Of a DNA stretch of 64,000 bases, positions 24,861 to 51,830 are shown in pieces; within the stretch, counting starts at the first letter, position 1, and the number at the start of each line of letters is the position of its first letter. The stretch spans positions 64,001 through 128,000 of the forward strand of contig JBGPQV010000004.1 of NCBI GenBank assembly GCA_041489255.1, in the 5' to 3' direction. A model generated the notes under the pieces. The model saw only the letters and a program-made list of their open reading frames with translations, did no database searches and was not told the DNA's origin. This DNA comes from Thermoplasmata archaeon (lineage in GTDB: Archaea > Thermoplasmatota > Thermoplasmata > RBG-16-68-12 > JAFNFQ01). Both the position numbers and the translations under genes were made by a program.

Positions 24861-27800
24861 TCAGCCGACCGGCGCGGTCAGGTCGATGACGCCGTCAACC
24901 TCTCTCTCGAGCAGATTGAGCTGGTGGCTGTCGAGGGTCGACGGGTTCACCGACAGAAGGAGAGTGGCCTTGTTCACCGCAATCTGGTCCCTCAAGGACT
25001 GAACCAGCCTCAGGACCGTCAGGAAGTTGTTGTTCGTGATCAGGTATTCTATGCCGTCGAGCAAGACCAGCCCGCTTTCCTTCGTCAGGAACTGTTCGAG
25101 CAGCAAGGATAGCTTCTCGAGGTCCTTTGGCCTCACGGAATCTTCCTTTCCGATGTTGGAGAGCCAAATGATCGGCAATTCGGACAGTTCGTACTGCTCT
25201 CTGACTTTCTGCGGGAAGACGCGCGTGACGCACATGCCTTTCTTCCCGCCAACAAGCCCTGATTTGAACAGCACATACGCTTCTCCAGGCTGGGCCTCCT
25301 TCACCAGATACGTTGAGGACTCCTTCAGCGGAGGCAGACGCCTGGCCTCGACAGGCGGTCGTGGCGGGGGAGGGGGCGGCGGCTCCGGTGTATTCTGCTT
25401 TAGGGCTCCCCTAATGGGCACGGAACAGGTTGGGCACAGTTCCAATCCCTTCTTCACAGGGCTCTTGCAGTTCGGACATGCCACCAGCTCTTCTGCTGGC
25501 ACCGATACTCCTTCAAGCGACTCGGCACACCGCCAGCAATGCCCCTTTAGCACCTTGACTGCCGCACCGCAGGTGGAGCAAGCGTGCATCGTGGGAGCGG
25601 GCGCCCTCGTCGAGTACTCCTTGATTCTCTTGACGTCGACTTCTCCGATTCCCTCGATTGCGACTAGTTCCTGTGGTGTTGCCTGGCTCAATGCCGTCAA
25701 AGTCTTGTATCCAGCGTCGAAGAGGGTCATCGCTTTGTTCTGTGTAATGCCCTCAATCTTCGTGAACTGCGCGATTGCCTCGCCCATGTGCAGCGGCGTG
25801 ATGCCTATGAGCATGGTCTCGCCCTCAACGTTCCATTCGACGCCGTATTCCTCGTTCACATCCGCTTGATCCACTCGAAGAACGCGGGAGCGGGTCTCAG
25901 TCGCTATGTGGCCCTTCTGACTCTTGATCATCTCCGCCAGTTCGGCCCGGACCCTGATTGCGGTTCTGACGAAATCCTCCACCGGCAGATCGATGTCCTT
26001 CCTCATCTGCTGTATCCGGCGGATGATCTCCCTCGAGAAGCCCTCCGCCTTGACCTCGGGCGTGATCCGCATGTCCACGAACAACGTGCCGTGAGGAGTC
26101 TGGATCATCTTCACGCCCTCTGGCACTTGCCTGTCGAAGGATATCATGTAGGGCTGGACTTTCACTATCTGTCCATCGATTCCCAGTTTGTATTCACCCT
26201 TGTCGATCGCCCTCTTCACCTCGGATGGCTCTCGCGTCATGAGCATCGTGACTATCTTGCTCCAGGAAGCCTTGTAGACCTTGCTTATGGCTTCTCCGTC
26301 CGGCTTGAGCTTCAGCTTCAAACCCTCGAATTCCTGATCCTGCTCGAGTATCACCAGCGACCTCGCGTTCGCCTGTTGTAGGAGGATGTCCTTCAGCATG
26401 TTCACAGCGTGACGGGCACCTTCGCTGGGATCCTTGATAGCTATCTGGGCTATCGGCCACCTCAACTTCATTTTAGCTTCCTGTCTCGCTTGCGACACGA
26501 GCTCGACCAGCTCCTGCACGGTTGCCATCGAGACCTCCAAATCGCCGTTGATGAGGTCCTCATTCACGTTCGGCCAAGCGCACATATGCACGGTCAGGAA
26601 GCGCCCGTCCAGATTCTGGTACATCGTCTCGGCGACATGCGGGGTCAATGGGGCAAGAAGCTTGCATAGGCTCGTGAGGGACTCGTGCAACGTCTTGTAC
26701 GCGGCCAGCTTGCCCTTGTCGCCACCCTCCACCCAGGTCCTGTCCCTGACCAGCCTCACATACCATCTGGAAAGGTCGTTTAGTGTGAAATCCTCTAGTG
26801 CCCGGCAGGCCTTGTGCAGATTGTAGGCCTCAATCTCAGCACCGACCGTCATCTTCAACCGCTCGATCTTGGAAAGGAGCCACTTGTCCTCAGGCTTCAT
26901 GTACTTCATGAGGCTGTCCAAGCTGTGCGCCTGAGGGTCGAAACTGTCCATCGCCATGTAGAGCGTCGCGAACTTGTAGACGTTCCAAAGTATGTTGAGC
27001 GACCTGTGGGTGTTCTTCACTTCCTCCCAGTTGAACGTGAGATCCTCCCACGGGGGCTTCGTCTTCAGGAGATATAGACGCAGGGAGTCGACGCCGTACT
27101 TCTGGATGACCTCACTTGGCTCGACGTAATTGCCGAGGCTCTTGGACATCGCTTGGCCGTCCGAGCCAAGCATCCAGCCATGCATCAGCACGGATTCGTA
27201 TGGCGCGCGGTCGAACGCGACGACGCTCGCAGCGAGCTGCGAATTGAACCAGCCCCTGGTTTGGTCGTGCGCCTCGGAAATCCAGTCGGTAGGCCACCAA
27301 CGCTTGAATTCTCCTTCGACCTGCGGATAGTTGAGTTGCGCCCAGGAACAGATGCCTGCGTCGAACCAAACGTCGACGATATCCCTGACCCTGTTCTGTG
27401 TGTCCCCGCACTTGGGGCACTTGAACAAAACTTTGTCGATCCAGGGTCGGTGCGGGTCCATGCCAGGAGTGTAATTGACCCCTTCGCGCAGTTCAGCTTC
27501 CGACCCGATGACCCTCAGTGTGCCGCACTTCGCGCACCGCCAAACCGGCAGGGGAGTGCCCCAGTACCGCTGTCTGGTGATGCACCAGTCCCTGAGGTTC
27601 GTGGTCCATTCCTTCTGTCTGGACGATCCCGCCCAGTCCGGCGTCCATTTTATCCTGTCTACTTCCTCCAGCATCCTGTTTCTCACATCGCTGACCTTGA
27701 TGAACCACTGAGTCGTCAATCTGTACAGGACCGGCTGATGGCATCGCCAGCAATGCCCGTATCTGTGGGTCACTTGGCCAGAGGCGATGAGATGTCCTGA

Positions 27801-45522: not shown

Positions 45523-46737
45523 TTGGAATTCATCGCGGCTCTGCTGATTGTGCTTGTCACCGCTCTTGCACTCGGTGAAGGATTCCGCCGCCTTGGTCAC
45601 GCCCCGCTCATCGGCGAAGTTCTCGCCGGTCTCATCCTCGGTCCGAGCCTTCTCGCATTGGTAGATACGAACCCTGCAACGAGCGCGGGGGCCGGGCTCG
45701 GGACTGTGGCGACGCTCGGTGTCTTTTTCGTCGTTCTGGCGGCGGGAATCGAGGTCGGTCGTAGCGGATTGCGACAGGCGGTGCGGGAGGGAACCGCAAT
45801 CGTCGCCGTGGTCGAGTTCATCTTCCCATTCTATCTGGGGACGCTCCTTGCCCAAGCGCTCCACCTCGATCCGCTCCCTTCGTTGCTCCTTGCGACCGGC
45901 ATGGCCGTAACGGCACTTCCTGTGAGTGTCCGAATACTGATCGACTTCGACCTCCTTCAGACCCGTCTGGGCCGCGCGATTGTCTCAGTGGCAATTGTGA
46001 ATGACATAATCGCATTTGCCATGCTTGGCGTCATCTTGACTCTGCAAAGTTCGATAACAGGGGGCGACCCGTATGGCGGCATCGCGATTGGCGTGGGGAA
46101 GATCCTCCTGTTCGTCCTGCTCGTCTCGATCATCGGATGGCTTTTCCTTCTGAAACGCGCAGACGGGCGACCACATCTGGCAGCGTTCACTGCGAAATTG
46201 AGGCGACCGGAGGCCGCGTTCGGCATCGCCGTCGCTCTCGCGCTGGGAATGGGCGCGCTGGCGGAGATGCTCGGCATACACTTCGTGGTCGGCGTGTTTT
46301 ATGCGGGGGTCTTTCTCACCTCGGAGGCGGTCGGGATGTCTCAGTTCGCCCTCGTCCGCAACACGACTCAAAGCGTTGGACTCGGTTTCCTAGCGCCCGT
46401 TTTCTTTGCGTATGTCGGTCTCCGCATATCGATAACGCAGGTAGATTGGCTCCTGGTGGCGGTGGTGACCGCCGTCGCTTTCCTGGGCAAGATCATCGGG
46501 GGAGCGATTGGCGGGTACGCTGCGGGATTCAGGGGTCGCGAGCTAGCCGCACTCGGAATCGGTTTGAACGCGCGCGGCATGATGGAACTCCTGCTGGCTG
46601 ACATAGGTCTCCAGGCCGGAATCATCACTCAGAGCCTGTACGCCGCAATCGTTTTCATGACGCTGGTGACCACTGTGTGCGCGCCGATTCTGCTGAAGCT
46701 CCTGACAAAGGGCCCGAACGCGAACTTGACTGTATGA
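45523..46737 (+). CDS. Cation:proton antiporter (CPA2/Kef-type)
   Basis: GEVLAGLILGPS, TALPV..RIL.D, NDI, PVFFA..G, GK, ARG; about 12 TM helices. Confidence 0.92.
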   Translation: MEFIAALLIVLVTALALGEGFRRLGHAPLIGEVLAGLILGPSLLALVDTNPATSAGAGLGTVATLGVFFVVLAAGIEVGRSGLRQAVREGTAIVAVVEFIFPFYLGTLLAQALHLDPLPSLLLATGMAVTALPVSVRILIDFDLLQTRLGRAIVSVAIVNDIIAFAMLGVILTLQSSITGGDPYGGIAIGVGKILLFVLLVSIIGWLFLLKRADGRPHLAAFTAKLRRPEAAFGIAVALALGMGALAEMLGIHFVVGVFYAGVFLTSEAVGMSQFALVRNTTQSVGLGFLAPVFFAYVGLRISITQVDWLLVAVVTAVAFLGKIIGGAIGGYAAGFRGRELAALGIGLNARGMMELLLADIGLQAGIITQSLYAAIVFMTLVTTVCAPILLKLLTKGPNANLTV

Positions 46738-46812
46738 CCCCGGACCTGTGCGCGACAATTCTACGAGCGCGGGAAGTCCCCCCTTTCTTGAGACACCTCA
46801 GAGACGGCGCCA

Positions 46813-47826
46813 CTAGTCCCTGAGCTCCTTGCGGAGCCACGGAGCTTGCTTCTCCCCTCCTCTGAAGCCCAGCTCCCTCATGGCGGGCAGGAAATGCTTC
46901 GGAACGAAGACCCTCAGCAGCCCCGCACCCAGTCTCTCCGCTGTGGCGGCGGCGCATTTCACGATTGTCTGGACCGAATCGGTCCTTCTTGCCTCGGCTG
47001 AACCGGACCACACGTCAATCTCGGTGACAGTCTCCGCGAAGAAGTCGCATCTCGATGCGAGGAGTAGGAATCCCAGTTGAAGCTGGTCGACCTTGACACG
47101 GACCAGCAGGTGCTTGTTGTGGCGGTCAACGCCTGCGATCTTGAACGGAGGCCAAGCGGCCAGGGCAATCTCGAACCTGAGTTGCGGCGGCTCTCTGTGG
47201 TTCCACGCTTGGAGGAAGCCGGTTATCCTGTAGTCCTCCGCCACCGGCGTCACCTTGAAATCGACATCGGGTTCCTCCATCGCTCTTAGGTCGACCTCGC
47301 ACTCTCTCGTGTCCCAGAGTTCCTTGAATCCTAGGCGCCTGAAATCCAGCGAATCCCCGCCATGCTTCGGACCCACGTCCAAATTCTTGATGCTCATCTT
47401 CCTGCAGCGTTCCTCACTCTTCTCCAAGAGCAGTCTCTCGACGGACTCCTTCCCCGCGTCCTTGCTCGCCATCAGCATTTCTATGGCAGCATACTTCTTG
47501 AACGGCGGTCCTTCATCGGCAAGCCAGAGCTCACACTCGCCCACAACCTTCCCGCCCTCCTCCGCCACCATTATCGGGAAGCCCCTCGTGATGTACTCGT
47601 GGATGTGGCGCCTGCACAGGCTGTCGTCCATCCAGTCCCCGCCATGCAGGAGCCGCTGGAACGGAGTCAGGTCCTCATAGCTGCACGGGCTGTCGCGTGT
47701 GATCGGGTTGCGGAACCAAGACCCGAATGGGTTCTCCGCGACGTGCAGCTTCACTATGGCGGTCGCATCGTTGACGGTGGCGCTTCGGACTTGCAAGTCG
47801 CCCTCCTCTGCGGTGCATGCCCTCAT
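46813..47826 (-). CDS. GNAT-fold protein
   Basis: VRSAT.ND..AI, MVAEEGGKVVG, F.RLGF and a second ELGF. Confidence 0.7.
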   Translation of the reverse strand: MRACTAEEGDLQVRSATVNDATAIVKLHVAENPFGSWFRNPITRDSPCSYEDLTPFQRLLHGGDWMDDSLCRRHIHEYITRGFPIMVAEEGGKVVGECELWLADEGPPFKKYAAIEMLMASKDAGKESVERLLLEKSEERCRKMSIKNLDVGPKHGGDSLDFRRLGFKELWDTRECEVDLRAMEEPDVDFKVTPVAEDYRITGFLQAWNHREPPQLRFEIALAAWPPFKIAGVDRHNKHLLVRVKVDQLQLGFLLLASRCDFFAETVTEIDVWSGSAEARRTDSVQTIVKCAAATAERLGAGLLRVFVPKHFLPAMRELGFRGGEKQAPWLRKELRD

Positions 47827-47987
47827 GCTCTACAAATAAGTAATGAAGCAGGGGGTTCAACGGGGACGCTTGCATGTTCCGCAATGCATCCCCTCGCCCG
47901 CTGGATGGAGAGTATCGAGTGTGGTAACGTCGTGGAAACGTTTATATCAAAACCTCTGGCTACTGAATAGCAAGGCCGGGGTTATCA

Positions 47988-48551
47988 ATGGACTCCAAGC
48001 GAATGAAGATGAAAATCTGTCTCGTCGGGGAGGCGGCGGTGGGAAAAACAAGCCTCATTCGGCGCTTCGTCCTGGATGATTTTGACGACAAGTACATTCA
48101 GACTCTGGGTACGAAGGTTTCGAAGAAGGAGCTCAAGACGAACCACCCCGACCTGGATCTCGAGCTGAAGGTCGACATGACCATATGGGACATCATGGGA
48201 CAGAAGGGATTCCGCGAACTGCTCAAAGAGGCGTATTTCTACGGAGCCAAGGGCATAGTCGCGGTCTGCGACTCGACGCGAAGGAGCACGCTCGACGACC
48301 TGGACGACTGGATCGAAGGGGTCTACAGCGTAACAGGTAAGATTCCGATCGTCTTCATAGCGAACAAGTGCGACATAAGGGAGAAGATGGAGTTCGCCGA
48401 GGCCGAGATGGTCCAGGCCACGAAGGCCTACGACTCGCCGTTCTATTTCTCCAGCGCGAAGACCGGGGAGAACGTGGAGACGGCGTTCCAATCCCTCGCC
48501 GAGCGGGTGGCCAAAGAGCGCTTGGCAAGGCGTGAACCAGTCGAGGAATAG
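47988..48551 (+). CDS. Rab/Ras-like small GTPase 1
   Basis: G1 GEAAVGKT, G2 YIQTLG, G3 WDIMGQ, G4 NKCD, G5 SAK; TTTATA at 47941. Confidence 0.93.
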   Translation: MDSKRMKMKICLVGEAAVGKTSLIRRFVLDDFDDKYIQTLGTKVSKKELKTNHPDLDLELKVDMTIWDIMGQKGFRELLKEAYFYGAKGIVAVCDSTRRSTLDDLDDWIEGVYSVTGKIPIVFIANKCDIREKMEFAEAEMVQATKAYDSPFYFSSAKTGENVETAFQSLAERVAKERLARREPVEE

Positions 48552-48602
48552 CCCTCTTGCGTCGGAGATGAACCGGCGGGCTGTCTTTTTCTCAATGAAT
48601 GA

Positions 48603-48938
48603 TTAGCCATGCCTTTGCGGAAAGATGCTGCCGCAGTATGGGCCTAGCAGTGCATCTGCCGGGGCGCGGCGGCCACATGCCGGACAGGTTCGCATCCTCG
48701 ACATCTTTGCCGCCGTGGACGCGACAGACACAATGATGGCGAGTATCATCCCGAGGAACATTGGCATCGGATTGAATGTCGGCGGCGAATGGTTCCAGTC
48801 AAAGGCTGGGAGGATCGAGATGGCGATGATGAAGAGCATCAGGGTGAGCAGCATCGACCCCTCTTGCCTATTCATTGCGGATGAATCAGACACCTCTTGT
48901 GGATTTGGCTTTCCCTGCATGGCCCGCACCCAAAGCAC
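48603..48938 (-). CDS. Small two-TM protein with degenerate zinc ribbon (start uncertain)
   Basis: Two TM helices, then CPACG..GPYCG. Confidence 0.55.
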   Translation of the reverse strand: MLWVRAMQGKPNPQEVSDSSAMNRQEGSMLLTLMLFIIAISILPAFDWNHSPPTFNPMPMFLGMILAIIVSVASTAAKMSRMRTCPACGRRAPADALLGPYCGSIFPQRHG

Positions 48939-49127
48939 AATTGAACACGACCGATGAGCAAAGTTCGCTTGGCCATCGGTAGCACGGAGATGGCCGTCCA
49001 GAGACTAGACCCCATTCACCCCTGTCATTCTCTGGTATTCGAATTGATACGCGTAATCAAGCGTGAGAAGCAGATTTGATACGTGCAGAGGAGTTTATAA
49101 CATCACGGGACTCATTTCGTATTCTTC

Positions 49128-49691
49128 ATGCAGACTGAGACTCTTCTCACACAGAAGCATGTGAAGGCGAAGCTGTGCCTCGTCGGCGAGACCGGCGTTG
49201 GCAAGACATCGTTGATCCGGAAGTTCGTGACTGACAGATTCGATGACAGGTACATCGCGACTGTCGGCACGAAGATCATGAAGAAGAGCACAGATGTCGT
49301 GTGGCGTGACGAACCGAGGACGCTCGACATGACGATCTGGGACATAATGGGAGAGAAGGGTTTCCGGACACTGCTCAAGGAGGCGTACTTCCACGGTTCA
49401 CAGGGCATCATCGCGGTCTGCGACCTCACCAGGCCCGATACGCTGTTTGACCTGAACGGATGGGTGAATCTCGCGCTAAAGCAGGTCGGAGATGTGCCGT
49501 TCGTTTTCTTGGGGAACAAGGCTGACCTGTCGAAGGAGAAGGCGGTGGACGAGGAAGACCTCGCGAAGCTGTCCGCGATTCACAAGTCCCCTTACTATCT
49601 CACAAGCGCGAAGACCGGCGAGAACATCGACAACGCGTTCAAGTCGATTTCGAAGGCCATGGTCGCAGCATGTTCAGACGAGACTGGATGA
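49128..49691 (+). CDS. Rab/Ras-like small GTPase 2
   Basis: GETGVGKT, YIATVG, WDIMGE, NKAD, SAK; TTTATAA at 49094. Confidence 0.93.
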   Translation: MQTETLLTQKHVKAKLCLVGETGVGKTSLIRKFVTDRFDDRYIATVGTKIMKKSTDVVWRDEPRTLDMTIWDIMGEKGFRTLLKEAYFHGSQGIIAVCDLTRPDTLFDLNGWVNLALKQVGDVPFVFLGNKADLSKEKAVDEEDLAKLSAIHKSPYYLTSAKTGENIDNAFKSISKAMVAACSDETG

Positions 49692-49754
49692 GGATATCAC
49701 TTGAGATAACCACGAAGGAACTGATTTATAAGCGCGGGAACGTGGATTCTCTCG

Positions 49755-50321
49755 ATGTCGACAGTTGGAGCGGTCACCGCAACTAAGCAGAGGATGAAGG
49801 TCAAGATCTGTCTGGTCGGAGAGGGGGCGGTGGGCAAGACCTGCCTCATCCGCCGCTTCATTCACGATCAGTTCGACGACAAGTACATCTCGACTTTGGG
49901 GGCGAAGGTCTCCAAGAAGGAGATCAGTATGCCCGACCCCAAGGGCGGGCCAGACCTCGAGATAGACATGACAGTCTGGGACATCATGGGAGAGAAAGGC
50001 TTCCGTGAGCTGCTCAAAGAGGCATATTTCCATGGAGCGCAGGGCATCCTGGCGCTGTGCGATGTCACACGCAAGGATACGCTCCTGGAGCTGCCCGAGT
50101 GGGTCAACGCGGTGAACAAGGTTGCCGGCGCGGTCCCGATGACGCTGCTGGCAAACAAGATCGACCTTGTCAACCAGCGCGTTGTCACCGACGAGGAGAT
50201 CACGAAGGTCGCCGAGAGCTACAAGGCGCCCTGGATGAAAACGAGCGCCAAGACAGGCGAGAACGTCGAGTCCGGGTTCCAGAAGCTCGCGTGGCTCATC
50301 GCGAACAAGACTCTCCAGTGA
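49755..50321 (+). CDS. Rab/Ras-like small GTPase 3
   Basis: GEGAVGKT, YISTLG, WDIMGE, NKID, SAK; TTTATAA at 49725. Confidence 0.93.
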   Translation: MSTVGAVTATKQRMKVKICLVGEGAVGKTCLIRRFIHDQFDDKYISTLGAKVSKKEISMPDPKGGPDLEIDMTVWDIMGEKGFRELLKEAYFHGAQGILALCDVTRKDTLLELPEWVNAVNKVAGAVPMTLLANKIDLVNQRVVTDEEITKVAESYKAPWMKTSAKTGENVESGFQKLAWLIANKTLQ

Positions 50322-50400
50322 GTCTCCGACGCAATCCTGGTGCTGCAAGCTCTGTCAGCCTGAGCGCTGTACGCGATCGCCAGGCAAATCGACGAGATGC

Positions 50401-51726
50401 CTAGGGAATCAGCCTATTCCTGTCCCTTGGGAAAAGCACGGCTTCGCGGATGTTCGGCAGGTCCAGCATCTTCTGCACGAACCTGTCGATGCCGAACCCC
50501 CAACCGCCGTGCGGCGGCATGCCGAACCTGAACGGTTTGAGGTAGAAATCGAAGTTCACAAGGTCCAGTCCGAAAGCCTTCATTCTCTCAACGAGCTTGT
50601 CGTACCTGTGCTCCCTCTGCCCGCCAGAGGCCATCTCCATGCCCTTGTACTCCATGTCGAACGAGTTGCTGTACTCCGGGTCGTCTTCCTTCGGCATGAC
50701 GTAGAACGCCTTGATCGCTGAGGGATAGTCGCGTATGTAGTACAGCTCGTGACCCTTTTCCTGCATCGCTCTCCCGATGATCTTCTCGCCCTCTGTGTCG
50801 ATGTCGTCGCCTTCTTTGACTTTCTTCCCGTACTCTTGCAGGATCCCGATTGCGTCGACATACAGCAGCCGGGGAATCGGGAGGCTCGGGACCTTCGGGT
50901 CAAGCCCGAGGATCTCCAGATGCTCCTTGCCATGCTCCTTCACGTAAGCAATGCTACCGACGACGCACTCCTCGAGCATCTTGAGGAAATCCTCCTGATG
51001 CCTGATGAACGCGACCTCCGCGTCGAAGGAGATGAATTCGGTGATGTGGCGGACGGTGTCGGACGGCTCCGCGCGGAACGCGGGACTTATCTCGAAGACG
51101 CGGTCGAACCCGGTGGCCATGAGCATCTGCTTGTAGAGCTGCGGGCTCTGAGAGAGGAATGCACGCTTCCCGAAATAGTCGGTCTCGAAGAGTGACGCGC
51201 CGCCCTCCGCGCCCGCGCCGGCGAGCTTGGGCGTGTGGACTTCTACGAAACCCTTCGCGTACATGTAGTCCCTGATCGACCTGAGTGCAAGCGAACGGAT
51301 TGCGAACAGCGCTCTGTGCTCGGGCTTCCTCAGATCCATGAACCTGTTGTCAAGACGTGTGTCGAGTTCCGCGCCGACCTTGTCGACGACGCCAAGGGGC
51401 AGTGGCGCCTCCGCGGGACTCAGCACCTCCAGCTTGGCGGGCAGAATCTCGAAGCCATTCCTCGCCTGCTTGTTCGCGACCACCTTTCCAGTTGCGGCGA
51501 TTACCGACTCGCGGTTCACCGCCATGGCCTGTCCAAAGATTGCCGGTTCGTCTTTCTTCTTGAATGTGAGCTGGAGAGTCCCCTCTCTCTGCCTTAAAAT
51601 GATGAACGCGACCCCGCCAAGATTGCGGATGTCTTCCACCCAGCCCGCCACGCTGACGATTCTTCCATCATCCGAGGGGCTGATGTCCTTGAGTCTCGCG
51701 TATGGAGGCTGCTGTGCGCCTGACAT
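50401..51726 (-). CDS. aspS: Aspartate-tRNA ligase (archaeal type)
   Basis: RLDNR..DLR, EGG, SQSPQLYKQ, FRAE, GMPPHGG.G.G.DR, FPRD. Confidence 0.96.
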   Translation of the reverse strand: MSGAQQPPYARLKDISPSDDGRIVSVAGWVEDIRNLGGVAFIILRQREGTLQLTFKKKDEPAIFGQAMAVNRESVIAATGKVVANKQARNGFEILPAKLEVLSPAEAPLPLGVVDKVGAELDTRLDNRFMDLRKPEHRALFAIRSLALRSIRDYMYAKGFVEVHTPKLAGAGAEGGASLFETDYFGKRAFLSQSPQLYKQMLMATGFDRVFEISPAFRAEPSDTVRHITEFISFDAEVAFIRHQEDFLKMLEECVVGSIAYVKEHGKEHLEILGLDPKVPSLPIPRLLYVDAIGILQEYGKKVKEGDDIDTEGEKIIGRAMQEKGHELYYIRDYPSAIKAFYVMPKEDDPEYSNSFDMEYKGMEMASGGQREHRYDKLVERMKAFGLDLVNFDFYLKPFRFGMPPHGGWGFGIDRFVQKMLDLPNIREAVLFPRDRNRLIP

Positions 51727-51830
51727 TGGATCACGCTGAAAGAATGCCACGCTATAAAGGTGTTTGCGAGGGCCGTGACTTGCGATTCACTCAGCGGAGT
51801 CGGTCGCCTCCCGCCAATGAGTGCGCATTC

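What the first reader, a model, noticed from the sequence alone, without database searches (positions are those of the whole stretch)
47988..50321. Cluster of three stand-alone Rab-like small GTPases in a non-Asgard archaeon
Seen: three paralogs of about 187 aa, each with its own TATA box, complete G1-G5 motifs, Rab-like K.CLVG, YI.T.G and SAKTGEN, and a shared atypical switch II WDIMG(Q/E)KGFR.LLKEAYF.G. Only paralog 1 keeps the catalytic Gln; 2 and 3 have Glu. There is no C-terminal prenylation motif and no adjacent roadblock/MglB gene; a small Zn-ribbon membrane gene is interspersed. Established: expansions of Rab-like GTPases are typical of eukaryotes and Asgard archaea. Inference: an independent GTPase signalling network with sub-functionalised switches.
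Basis: partly seen in the sequence, partly recalled or inferred. Interest (0 to 1): 0.7.

Follow-up and report, generated by a model that had tools for sequence, protein, structure and literature searches.

The report
Conserved Rab-like GTPase trio, Thermoplasmata
Three neighbouring genes of an uncultured Thermoplasmata archaeon encode old, conserved Rab-like molecular switches that belong to a family of about 18 copies per genome, a gene expansion otherwise associated with eukaryotes and Asgard archaea, and the family appears to be linked to membrane receptors.

Summary
Three intact Ras/Rab-type GTPase genes lie at 47988-48551, 49128-49691 and 49755-50321 (+). All have G1-G5 motifs and lack a prenylation motif. 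The residue after DxxG is Gln, Glu, Glu.

The organism is an uncultured Thermoplasmata archaeon, not Asgard, and the contig is not chimeric.
- The Q/E/E order is kept in 68 related loci.
- Each gene has a TATC-N6-7-GATA palindrome and an A/T box in front.
- The genome holds 18 paralogs, and 41 of 41 genomes of its order hold 7-20.
- A tree shows the paralogs predate the order's families. Other Thermoplasmatota lineages expanded the family separately.
- Among solved structures the nearest are eukaryotic Rabs and Thorarchaeota Rab.

The interspersed "Zn-ribbon membrane gene" is a fragment copied from lonB, not a partner.

No TBC, longin, GDI or RapGAP gene was found, and no Roadblock gene lies beside the trio. 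The family does associate with an unnamed ~130-residue domain that looks weakly Roadblock-like. This domain forms the cytoplasmic tail of surface proteins next to other paralogs, and it is fused to close G1 relatives. The fold and the binding are not shown.

The scan reported this trio at least six times before on other genomes. Verdict: a real, uncharacterised variant of a known protein kind.

The parts
47988..48551 (+). G1: Rab-like small GTPase, 187 aa, Gln after DxxG (WDIMGQ)
   Evidence: ORF. Pfam Ras 115.2 bits. Motifs. Orthologs 66-100% identical in 69 loci, all with Q.
49128..49691 (+). G2: Rab-like small GTPase, 187 aa, Glu after DxxG (WDIMGE)
   Evidence: The second gene of the array has E in 63 of 63 related loci.
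49755..50321 (+). G3: Rab-like small GTPase, 188 aa, Glu after DxxG
   Evidence: (130.8 bits). The third gene has E in 55 of 60 related loci, with A in 1, D in 3 and G in 1. 2133 database homologs at E<=1e-3, several named 'Rab family GTPase [Thermoplasmata archaeon]'.
48603..48938 (-). 111-aa ORF (two TM helices plus a CxxC tail). It is a fragment copied from the membrane hairpin of lonB, probably not functional and not part of the GTPase system.
   Evidence: Residues 19-70 are 56% identical to the genome's own lonB at C2:61137-61298 (E 1.6e-16), and 31% identical to the LonB of relative L035. In relatives, lonB follows G3. In the near-identical relative L029 the ORF is split into two frames.
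47913..47926 (.). Operator-like palindrome before G1, with one mismatch (TATCGAGTGTGGTA)
   Evidence: Relatives have an exact TATC-N6-7-GATA before G1 in 45 of 67 loci; background is 145 of 5000 windows.
47941..47947 (+). TATA box of G1 (TTTATAT), 41 nt before the ATG
   Evidence: Sequence read. Relatives.
49036..49049 (.). Degenerate palindrome before G2 (TATTCGAATTGATA, one mismatch)
   Evidence: Relatives have the exact palindrome before G2 in 40 of 62 loci.
49094..49100 (+). TATA box of G2 (TTTATAA), 28 nt before the ATG
49695..49708 (.). Exact palindrome before G3 (TATCACTTGAGATA)
   Evidence: Relatives have the exact palindrome before G3 in 45 of 59 loci.
49725..49731 (+). TATA box of G3 (TTTATAA), 24 nt before the ATG
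   Evidence: In relatives an A/T box follows the palindrome in 45 of 45 loci.

Best explanation
G1, G2 and G3 are three ancient, separately promoted but jointly regulated paralogs of a Thermoplasmatota-specific family of Rab-like small GTPases. Each is a guanine-nucleotide switch.

Shown: all nucleotide-binding motifs are intact. The order Q/E/E is fixed across the order. A common palindromic operator sits before each promoter. The family has 7-20 copies per genome, and these copies form orthogroups older than the order's families.

Inferred: G1 (Gln) cycles like a classical Rab, while G2 and G3 (Glu) hydrolyse by an altered mechanism or at an altered rate, so the three act as non-redundant switches with different timing.

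Inferred from gene neighbourhood and gene fusion: the family's cognate regulator or anchor is an unnamed ~130-residue domain, possibly Roadblock/longin-like. It forms the cytoplasmic tail of single-pass surface proteins and of small membrane proteins. On this reading the GTPases, which lack lipid anchors, are recruited to and switched at the membrane by receptor tails, giving outside-in signalling. The trio itself has no such gene beside it and would use tails encoded elsewhere.

Odds: real, selected GTP switches and an ancient co-regulated paralog set, about 0.9. The tail domain is a true partner of the family, about 0.55. The tail domain has a Roadblock/longin fold and acts as a GAP or GEF platform, about 0.35.
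For: Motifs and family:
-.
- A profile of the 18 paralogs finds Rab proteins in all of the best 60 PDB sequences (Rab1A 9e-41, Thorarchaeota Rab 1e-40).
- The AF2 model of a paralog has Rab1b, Rab4a, Rab8 and Thor-Rab as best Foldseek matches, with TM normalised to target of 0.75-0.8.

Conservation:
- The array rpl3 | G1 G2 G3 is found in about 50 loci.
- Q 68/68, E 63/63 and E 55/60.

Co-regulation:
- Exact TATC-N6-7-GATA is present in 45/67, 40/62 and 45/59 loci, against a background of 145/5000.
- An A/T box follows it within 40 nt in 36/45, 32/40 and 45/45 loci, against 536/5000.

Expansion:
- 18 paralogs in the genome.
- 41/41 genomes of the order have 7-20 matches.
- 41/251 genomes of a phylum sample have a match.
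- In the tree of 77 G domains, the rows of the three genomes of the order interleave. The label G000 needs 17 changes for 18 rows, against a shuffled mean of 16.2.

Partner domain:
- The tail of the 1545-aa surface protein after the E/E pair on C7 has 9 copies in the genome. Three are directly upstream of paralog L002, the nearest at 109 nt.
- Over 5 genomes, 9 of 75 copies lie within 1 kb of a Rab-like GTPase, where about 1.2 were expected.
- 4 of 5 E/E-pair loci in relatives have the giant tail-bearing protein right after the pair.
- 5 of 49 longer homologs of G1 are fusions carrying this domain. Three of these are 62-70% identical to G1.

Fold hints:
- hhalign against the genome's own Roadblock proteins gives probability 42% and E 2.6e-4 over 100 columns.
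- Pfam Robl_LC7 matches at E 0.027 in 2 of 7 copies.
Against: - No tail-domain gene lies beside the trio in the window, and only 1 of 69 trio loci in relatives has one (L059).
- Most tail copies (59 of 75) and most GTPases are not near each other.
- Related genomes are not independent, so the Poisson figures overstate the association.
- The Roadblock assignment is weak.
- No GTPase assay exists. The literature on Glu at this position in Ras is contradictory: a passage in PMC2987813 cites increased intrinsic activity of Q61E, while a passage in PMC6813200 reports one-eighth of the wild-type rate.
- No expression data could be obtained.
Confidence: 0.6

Rival explanations
1. The GTPases are cytosolic regulators of housekeeping processes such as translation or proteostasis, not membrane signalling. 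The trio sits between the rpl3 ribosomal operon and (ancestrally) lonB, and other paralogs sit beside aminoacyl-tRNA synthetase genes.
For: In about 50 loci rpl3 lies upstream, and in relatives lonB lies directly downstream of G3. Five of the 15 paralog sites in this genome lie near aaRS genes: AspRS, a class-I aaRS, PheRS, HisRS and GluRS. One fusion carries CDC48_N and GrpE-like domains.
Against: These neighbours are transcribed separately or divergently, and each GTPase has its own operator and promoter. In this genome lonB has moved away without loss of the trio. No fusion to ribosomal or aaRS domains was seen among the 49 longer homologs. The aaRS adjacency was not tested against a proper null.
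Confidence: 0.15
2. The system is an MglA/MglB-like polarity or motility module. The stand-alone Roadblock proteins of the genome act in trans as GAPs for the Rab-like paralogs.
For: There are eight Robl_LC7 matches in the genome. Several are orphan genes or lie beside response-regulator and V4R genes. According to Wuichet 2015, Roadblock proteins are the known GAPs of prokaryotic MglA (PMC4316618, passages seen).
Against: None of the canonical Roadblock genes is adjacent to a Rab-like paralog; the nearest is 3.6 kb from L014, in a KaiC cluster. In Wuichet's survey, 0 of 121 Rup-subclade GTPases were coupled to MglB (PMC4316618, Table 1, seen). The family retains the DxxG Asp and Rab-type motifs, unlike MglA.
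Confidence: 0.12
3. G2 and G3 (Glu) are hydrolysis-dead or permanently loaded pseudo-switches that pair with the Gln-type G1. This would resemble the unequal partners of Rag heterodimers or locked atypical GTPases.
For: The Q/E/E order is strictly conserved. The residue at this position is very variable across the 18 paralogs (Q, E, S, R, T, D, A). Der 1986, as quoted in PMC6813200, found reduced hydrolysis for Ras Q61E.
Against: All other nucleotide-binding motifs of G2 and G3 are intact and conserved. A passage in PMC2987813 cites increased intrinsic GTPase activity for Q61E. There is no dimerisation domain, and no test of pairing was run.
Confidence: 0.15
4. The cluster is foreign: a recent transfer from an Asgard archaeon or a eukaryote, or an assembly chimera.
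For: By profile the family is nearest to eukaryotic Rabs and Thorarchaeota Rab. The GC content of the 48-50 kb bin is 0.551, against 0.58-0.61 in the bins around it.
Against: The same array sits in the same genomic place in about 50 Thermoplasmata-labelled loci, down to 66% protein identity. 41/41 genomes of the order carry 7-20 copies. The best Asgard hit among longer homologs is only 35% identical (P0170).
Confidence: 0.03

Closest known systems
Eukaryotic Rab GTPases (Rab1, Rab8, Rab21, Rab7, Ypt1)
   Same: Best profile matches among solved structures and best fold matches. Shared features are W before DxxG, an FR...YY/YF.GA-type switch II, NKxD and SAK. The family has many paralogs per genome, with a conserved switch region and variable termini.
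   Different: There are no C-terminal Cys prenylation sites and no hypervariable tail. One extra residue lies in the switch II/helix 2 region relative to Rab1a (alignment). No TBC, GDI or longin (PF13774) genes were found. Glu replaces the catalytic Gln in two of the three. The host has no known endomembranes. Phylogenetic placement against Rab/Ras/Rho was not tested here.
Asgard Rab-like/RasL GTPases (Thorarchaeota Rab, PDB 7ezb/7ezd/7eze; Tran et al. 2024, PMC10933270; Surkont & Pereira-Leal 2016, PMC4915359)
   Same: They are archaeal, stand-alone, Rab-like by motif and structure, and have no prenylation site. Thor-Rab is the second-best PDB hit (1e-40). Roadblock-GTPase fusions exist in Asgard archaea (P0170).
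   Different: The host phylum is different (Thermoplasmatota). Surkont 2016 (passages seen) listed only single Rab-like copies in a 'Thermoplasmatales archaeon' and in Aciduliprofundum. Here there are 7-20 per genome, with a fixed Q/E/E trio.
Rup family (Wuichet & Sogaard-Andersen 2015, PMC4316618): Rup1 (bacteria) and Rup2 (Crenarchaeota)
   Same: They are prokaryotic Ras-superfamily GTPases with eukaryote-like G1-G5 motifs, of unknown function, not coupled to MglB. Rup1 also lacks the catalytic Gln. Rup2 is duplicated up to six times per genome (passages seen).
   Different: The conserved Rup1 neighbourhood (a coiled-coil protein, an OmpA-domain protein and a signalling protein) is not seen at any of the 15 sites. 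Rup2 is reported only from Thermoproteaceae (preprint 10.1101/2024.02.28.582541, passages seen). Membership was not tested by phylogeny because no reference sequences could be brought in.
MglA-MglB and the Roadblock/longin platforms of Ragulator, TRAPP and GATOR
   Same: If the tail domain is Roadblock-like, the logic is the same: a small alpha/beta platform domain next to or fused with a small GTPase, acting as GAP or GEF (Tran 2024, passage seen).
   Different: Here the candidate platform is the cytoplasmic tail of surface proteins of up to 1545 aa. Its fold is supported only weakly, and binding is not shown.

Membership tests
Ras superfamily small GTPase (Pfam PF00071 Ras) | G1 P-loop GxxxxGK[ST], G2 Thr, G3 DxxG, G4 NKxD, G5 SAK, in about 170-190 aa | tested here: met
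   All five motifs are present in G1, G2 and G3. PF00071 scores 115-131 bits against a cut-off of 21.6.
Rab family (eukaryotic sense) | Closest similarity to Rabs rather than to Ras, Rho, Ran or Arf | tested here: met
   The best 60 of 810 PDB sequences are all Rab, Ypt, Sec4 or Thor-Rab. Foldseek top hits are Rab1b, Rab4a and Rab8. This shows similarity only, not phylogeny.
Rab family (eukaryotic sense) | C-terminal Cys prenylation motif and hypervariable tail | tested here: not met
   The C-termini end REPVEE, ACSDETG and NKTLQ.
Rab family (eukaryotic sense) | Cognate machinery: GDI/REP, TBC GAPs, longin/DENN GEFs | tested here: not met
   PF00996, PF00566 and PF13774 give no match at E<=0.01 in a genome that is 96.5% complete. 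Controls were silent for TBC and Longin, so these two absences are weakly supported.
Rab family (eukaryotic sense) | Monophyly with eukaryotic Rabs in a tree with Ras, Rho, Ran, RasL and Rup | not testable with these tools
   No eukaryotic, Asgard or Rup reference sequences could be obtained as stored proteins.
Rup1 (Wuichet 2015) | Conserved four-gene neighbourhood; lack of the catalytic Gln | tested here: not met
   The neighbourhoods of all 15 sites are heterogeneous. G1 and 5 other paralogs keep Gln.
MglA family | Coupling to an adjacent MglB/Roadblock gene; altered G3 lacking the conserved Asp | tested here: not met
   No Robl_LC7 gene is adjacent to the trio. DxxG is intact. A separate KaiC-fused Arf/MglA-like GTPase with two Roadblock genes exists at C4:150878-152775.
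Roadblock/LC7-longin platform (for the tail domain, not the GTPases) | Alpha-beta-beta-alpha-beta-beta-beta fold detectable by profile or structure | tested here: inconclusive
   Pfam Robl_LC7 matches at E 0.027 in 2 of 7 copies. hhalign gives probability 42% and E 2.6e-4. The PDB profile search found no hit. The Atlas lead scores 0.76. No structure model was possible.

The most novel reading that the evidence does not exclude
An archaeal order unrelated to Asgard runs its own multi-paralog Rab-like GTPase system, with 7-20 switches per 1.5-3 Mb genome. The switches are wired to the cell surface. Giant glycosylated surface proteins and small membrane proteins carry a cytoplasmic Roadblock/longin-like tail that recruits and regulates the lipid-free GTPases. 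This would be an independent prokaryotic version of receptor-to-small-GTPase signalling. The Q/E/E trio would be its conserved, jointly regulated core, with built-in differences in hydrolysis chemistry.
Probability: 0.3. Interest if true: 0.8.

Novelty: new variant of a known kind. Interest (0 to 1): 0.55.

Why it matters
Large sets of Ras/Rab-like GTPase paralogs are used as a hallmark of eukaryote-like cell organisation and as an argument for the Asgard ancestry of membrane trafficking. Here a whole order of Thermoplasmata keeps 7-20 such genes per small genome. They sit in stable orthogroups with their own operator. Other Thermoplasmatota lineages expanded the family separately. Paralog expansion of Rab-like switches is therefore not unique to the Asgard-eukaryote line.

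The family also offers testable material:
- natural Gln/Glu variants of the catalytic residue, fixed over long evolutionary time;
- a candidate partner domain that appears both on receptor tails and in fusions.

I found no paper describing this expansion in four full-text searches. Supplements of the surveys cited were not read and may list some of these proteins.

Tried and rejected
- Complex prediction. The paralog L002 (full length, alignment A7) was run with two copies of the adjacent tail domain (alignment A8). The verdict was 'no answer': score 0.64, but a control with chain 1 replaced scored 0.60. This is no evidence either way.
- RNA evidence. No RNA holder was listed for window 47800-50400.
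- Atlas search of the C-terminal four-helix domain gave no usable hit.
- Fold search of that four-helix domain (model pLDDT 93.5) gave a best VIA Z of 8.2, within the range expected for helical bundles, and a best Foldseek E of 1.9. No assignment was made.
- Pfam on the ~90-aa C-terminal extensions of five paralogs gave only one weak winged-helix hit (DUF6293_C, E 0.0097, below cut-off). The impression that L015, L017 and L018 carry a wHTH remains unproven.
- Surface-protein adjacency judged by Pfam domain alone was rejected as evidence. PKD domains give 118 matches in roughly 45 large ORFs, and DUF11 occurs in 7 ORFs. Finding such genes within 5 kb of 6 of 15 sites is therefore near expectation.
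- The small 'Zn-ribbon membrane gene' as a conserved partner was rejected.
- My first reading that G1 and G2 are co-transcribed in relatives was withdrawn. It rested on TATA words found before G2 in only 5 of 63 loci. With a wider A/T-box criterion, G2 has its own box in 32 of 40 loci.
- The search for related loci with the 18-paralog alignment failed because the alignment had no conserved stretch. The three-paralog alignment was used instead.
- The search of protein representatives and the third homologous-protein search were not used.
Full report
**Observation**

The three ORFs are as described: 47988-48551 (187 aa), 49128-49691 (187 aa) and 49755-50321 (188 aa), all on the + strand. Each matches Pfam Ras (PF00071) at 115-131 bits. 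The matches to Roc (86-99 bits) and Arf (48-51 bits) are weaker. NCBIfam gives only the generic small_GTP domain.

The three proteins are 49-54% identical to each other. They share:
- the P-loop;
- the switch-I Thr in YI.T.G;
- WDIMG(Q/E)KGFR.LLKEAYF.G;
- NKxD;
- SAKTGEN.

The residue after DxxG is Gln in the first protein and Glu in the other two. None ends in a Cys motif. A TTTATA box lies 24-41 nt before each ATG.

**Organism and integrity of the contig**

The window is contig C4:64001-128000 of a 2.74-Mb assembly that is 96.5% complete.

A scan of species-representative genomes with the three-paralog alignment returned 74 loci. All carry archaeal labels: Thermoplasmata 31, 'Methanobacteriota archaeon' 27, Methanomassiliicoccales 13 and Thermoplasmatota 3.

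In about 50 of these loci the same array follows the divergently transcribed rpl3 gene. G1 identity falls from 100% to 66% across them. A near-identical relative (L029) has the whole 10.5-kb arrangement of the window. The cluster is therefore native to this lineage, and is neither Asgard nor chimeric.

**The small interspersed gene**

In relatives, G3 is followed by the membrane-bound protease gene lonB and then by an NMN adenylyltransferase gene. The tblastn 'hits' of the 111-aa window ORF in those loci fall in the transmembrane hairpin of LonB.

In this genome lonB lies elsewhere, at C2:59667-61652. Residues 19-70 of the small ORF are 56% identical to that gene's hairpin (E 1.6e-16). In L029 the ORF is split between two frames.

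The small ORF is thus a relic of the rearrangement that separated lonB from the array and inserted about 0.5 kb between G1 and G2. It is not a partner.

**Conservation of the trio**

In the related loci:
- the first gene always has Gln (68 of 68);
- the second always has Glu (63 of 63);
- the third mostly has Glu (55 of 60; A in 1, D in 3, G in 1);
- where a fourth gene exists (11 loci) it has E, N or D.

Exact TATC-N6-7-GATA lies upstream of G1 in 45 of 67 loci, of G2 in 40 of 62 and of G3 in 45 of 59. The background is 145 of 5000 random 120-nt windows.

The palindrome is followed within 40 nt by an A/T-rich box in 36/45, 32/40 and 45/45 loci, against a background of 536/5000. Each gene therefore has its own promoter and a common operator.

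In the window the palindrome is exact only before G3 (49695-49708). It has one mismatch before G1 and before G2.

**The family**

The genome has 19 Ras-family matches over the Pfam cut-off. They break down as follows:
- 18 belong to the WD(I/V)(M/L)G family;
- 1 is an Arf/MglA-like domain fused to KaiC;
- 1 further match is a fragment.

Across the 18 paralogs the residue after DxxG is Q, E, S, R, T, D or A.

With a profile of the 18 paralogs at E<=1e-20:
- all 41 genomes of the same order (7 families, 10 genera) have 7-20 matches;
- one genome of another class has 23 matches.

A maximum-likelihood tree was built from 77 G domains of five genomes (quick IQ-TREE, LG+G4).
- The paralogs of the three genomes of the order interleave as orthogroups. 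G000 needs 17 label changes for 18 rows, against a shuffled mean of 16.2.
- Sixteen of the 18 lie in an order-specific clade (SH-aLRT 98).
- The genomes of another order and another class cluster largely by genome, with 3 and 6 changes against shuffled means of 10.5 and 17.2.

The expansion in this order is therefore old, and other lineages expanded the family separately.

Two paralogs (L002, L013) group with those other lineages. They carry a ~90-residue C-terminal four-helix domain (AF2 pLDDT 82.4 for the whole protein and 93.5 for the domain alone). This domain has no specific structural match.

**Comparison with known families**

The 18-paralog profile finds only Rab-type proteins among its best 60 PDB sequences: Rab1A 9e-41, Thorarchaeota Rab 1e-40, then Rab8, Rab21, Rab10, Rab7, Rab6 and Ypt1. 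Foldseek on the model gives the same picture. NCBI already names homologs 'Rab family GTPase [Thermoplasmata archaeon]'.

From the literature:
- Surkont & Pereira-Leal 2016 (PMC4915359; passages read) listed one Rab-like protein each in a Thermoplasmatales archaeon and in Aciduliprofundum, as long unplaced branches.
- Wuichet & Sogaard-Andersen 2015 (PMC4316618; passages read) defined Rup1 (bacterial, no Gln, conserved four-gene neighbourhood) and Rup2 (Crenarchaeota, up to six copies).
- The preprint 10.1101/2024.02.28.582541 (passages read) restricts Rup2 to Thermoproteaceae and adds Rup3 for Heimdallarchaeia.

None of the passages I saw mentions a Thermoplasmata expansion. Four full-text searches found no paper on it. 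I did not read the supplementary tables of these surveys.

**Regulators**

The genome gave no match at E<=0.01 to RabGAP-TBC, Longin (PF13774), GDI or Rap_GAP. The control genomes were silent for three of these families, so those absences are weak.

There are eight Roadblock matches.
- Two flank the KaiC-fused GTPase.
- The rest are orphan genes or lie beside response-regulator and V4R genes.
- None is next to a Rab-like paralog.

The neighbourhoods of the other 15 paralog sites are heterogeneous housekeeping genes.

**A candidate partner domain**

This part followed a lead from earlier notes of this scan.

The 1545-aa glycoprotein-like gene right after the E/E tandem pair on contig C7 ends in a transmembrane helix plus a ~145-residue cytoplasmic tail.

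This tail has 9 copies in the genome:
- three in the cluster directly upstream of paralog L002, as tails of two DUF11 surface proteins and of a 210-aa membrane protein, the nearest 109 nt from the GTPase match;
- one on the C7 giant;
- two inside a 2426-aa coiled-coil protein;
- one in the C-terminal half of a 272-aa protein whose N-terminal half is a Pfam Roadblock domain;
- two others.

Over five genomes, 9 of 75 copies lie within 1 kb of a Rab-like GTPase, where about 1.2 were expected from genome fractions. Within 5.5 kb the count is 16 of 75, against about 4.0 expected. Related genomes are not independent.

In relatives, 4 of 5 loci of the E/E pair have the giant tail-bearing gene right after the pair. 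Only 1 of 69 trio loci has a tail-domain gene beside it.

Among 49 longer homologs of G1 (E<=1e-20), an HMM of the tail finds it in five:
- three [tail][GTPase] proteins that are 62-70% identical to G1 and have a Q-type switch II;
- one DUF835-tail-GTPase protein;
- one CDC48_N-GrpE-like-tail-GTPase protein.

Neighbourhood and fusion together make a functional link likely.

The fold of the tail is unresolved:
- Pfam Robl_LC7 matches at E 0.027 in 2 of 7 copies;
- hhalign against the genome's Roadblock proteins gives probability 42% and E 2.6e-4 over 100 columns;
- the PDB profile search found nothing;
- the Atlas lead is weak.

**Mechanism**

Shown: the three proteins have intact switch proteins' motifs and are under long-term selection. 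They have fixed catalytic-residue differences and a common operator.

Inferred: G1 behaves as a classical GTPase. G2 and G3 use Glu, for which the Ras literature gives opposite results (passages in PMC2987813 and PMC6813200). The family is recruited and regulated by tail domains of membrane proteins. The trio would use tails encoded elsewhere.

**Verdict**

This is a real and conserved variant of a known protein kind, not described in print as far as my searches reach. It is of moderate to good interest. The same trio was already reported at least six times by this scan on other genomes.

Noticed in passing
G000:C7:61998-66635 (L105:6399-11033): A 1545-aa protein lies right after the E/E GTPase pair. 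It has an N-terminal signal/TM segment, many NxS/T sites, cadherin-like 'VNDPPV' repeats, a C-terminal TM helix and a ~145-aa cytoplasmic tail domain with 9 copies in the genome. An earlier scan note on this genome (a giant receptor anchored at both ends) may describe the same gene.
   Followed up: partly
G000:C1:99397-106677 (L176:4398-11678, minus): A 2426-aa ORF has an N-terminal zinc ribbon, very long coiled-coil repeats and two internal copies of the same tail domain. Orthologs of 2000-2433 aa occur in two other genomes of the order.
   Followed up: no
G000:C7:61247-61846 (L004): This paralog has no ATG, GTG or TTG between the upstream stop and its P-loop, although it is conserved in relatives. 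It may use an unusual start codon or depend on read-through or coupling with the gene before it.
   Followed up: no
G000:C4:150878-152775 (outside the window, same contig): An Arf/MglA-like GTPase is fused to a KaiC domain (398-aa ORF). It is followed by two Roadblock genes and sits in a row of four KaiC-like genes.
   Followed up: partly
window 45523-47826: A Na+/H+ exchanger gene and a 337-aa GNAT-like gene lie between rpl3 and G1. In most relatives rpl3 and G1 are direct neighbours, so these two genes are an insertion in this genus.
   Followed up: partly
window 24900-25253 (minus), in a 1385-aa ORF: This is one of 7 DUF835 domains of the genome. DUF835 is fused to this GTPase family in about 20 of 49 longer homologs, but no copy lies next to a GTPase here.
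   Followed up: partly
G000: five paralog sites (window AspRS 50401-51750; L104, L112, L115, L116): Rab-like paralogs lie within a few kb of aminoacyl-tRNA synthetase genes at 5 of 15 sites. This was not tested against a null and may only reflect conserved housekeeping regions.
   Followed up: no
G000:C2:38861-39172 (L020): A 103-aa ORF holds only the G5 end of a Rab-like GTPase (TSAKTGANVENAF). It is a probable gene fragment.
   Followed up: no
P0124, P0125, P0126 (database proteins): The tail-GTPase fusions closest to G1 have Asp instead of the second P-loop Gly (GxxxxDKT). This might impair nucleotide binding.
   Followed up: no
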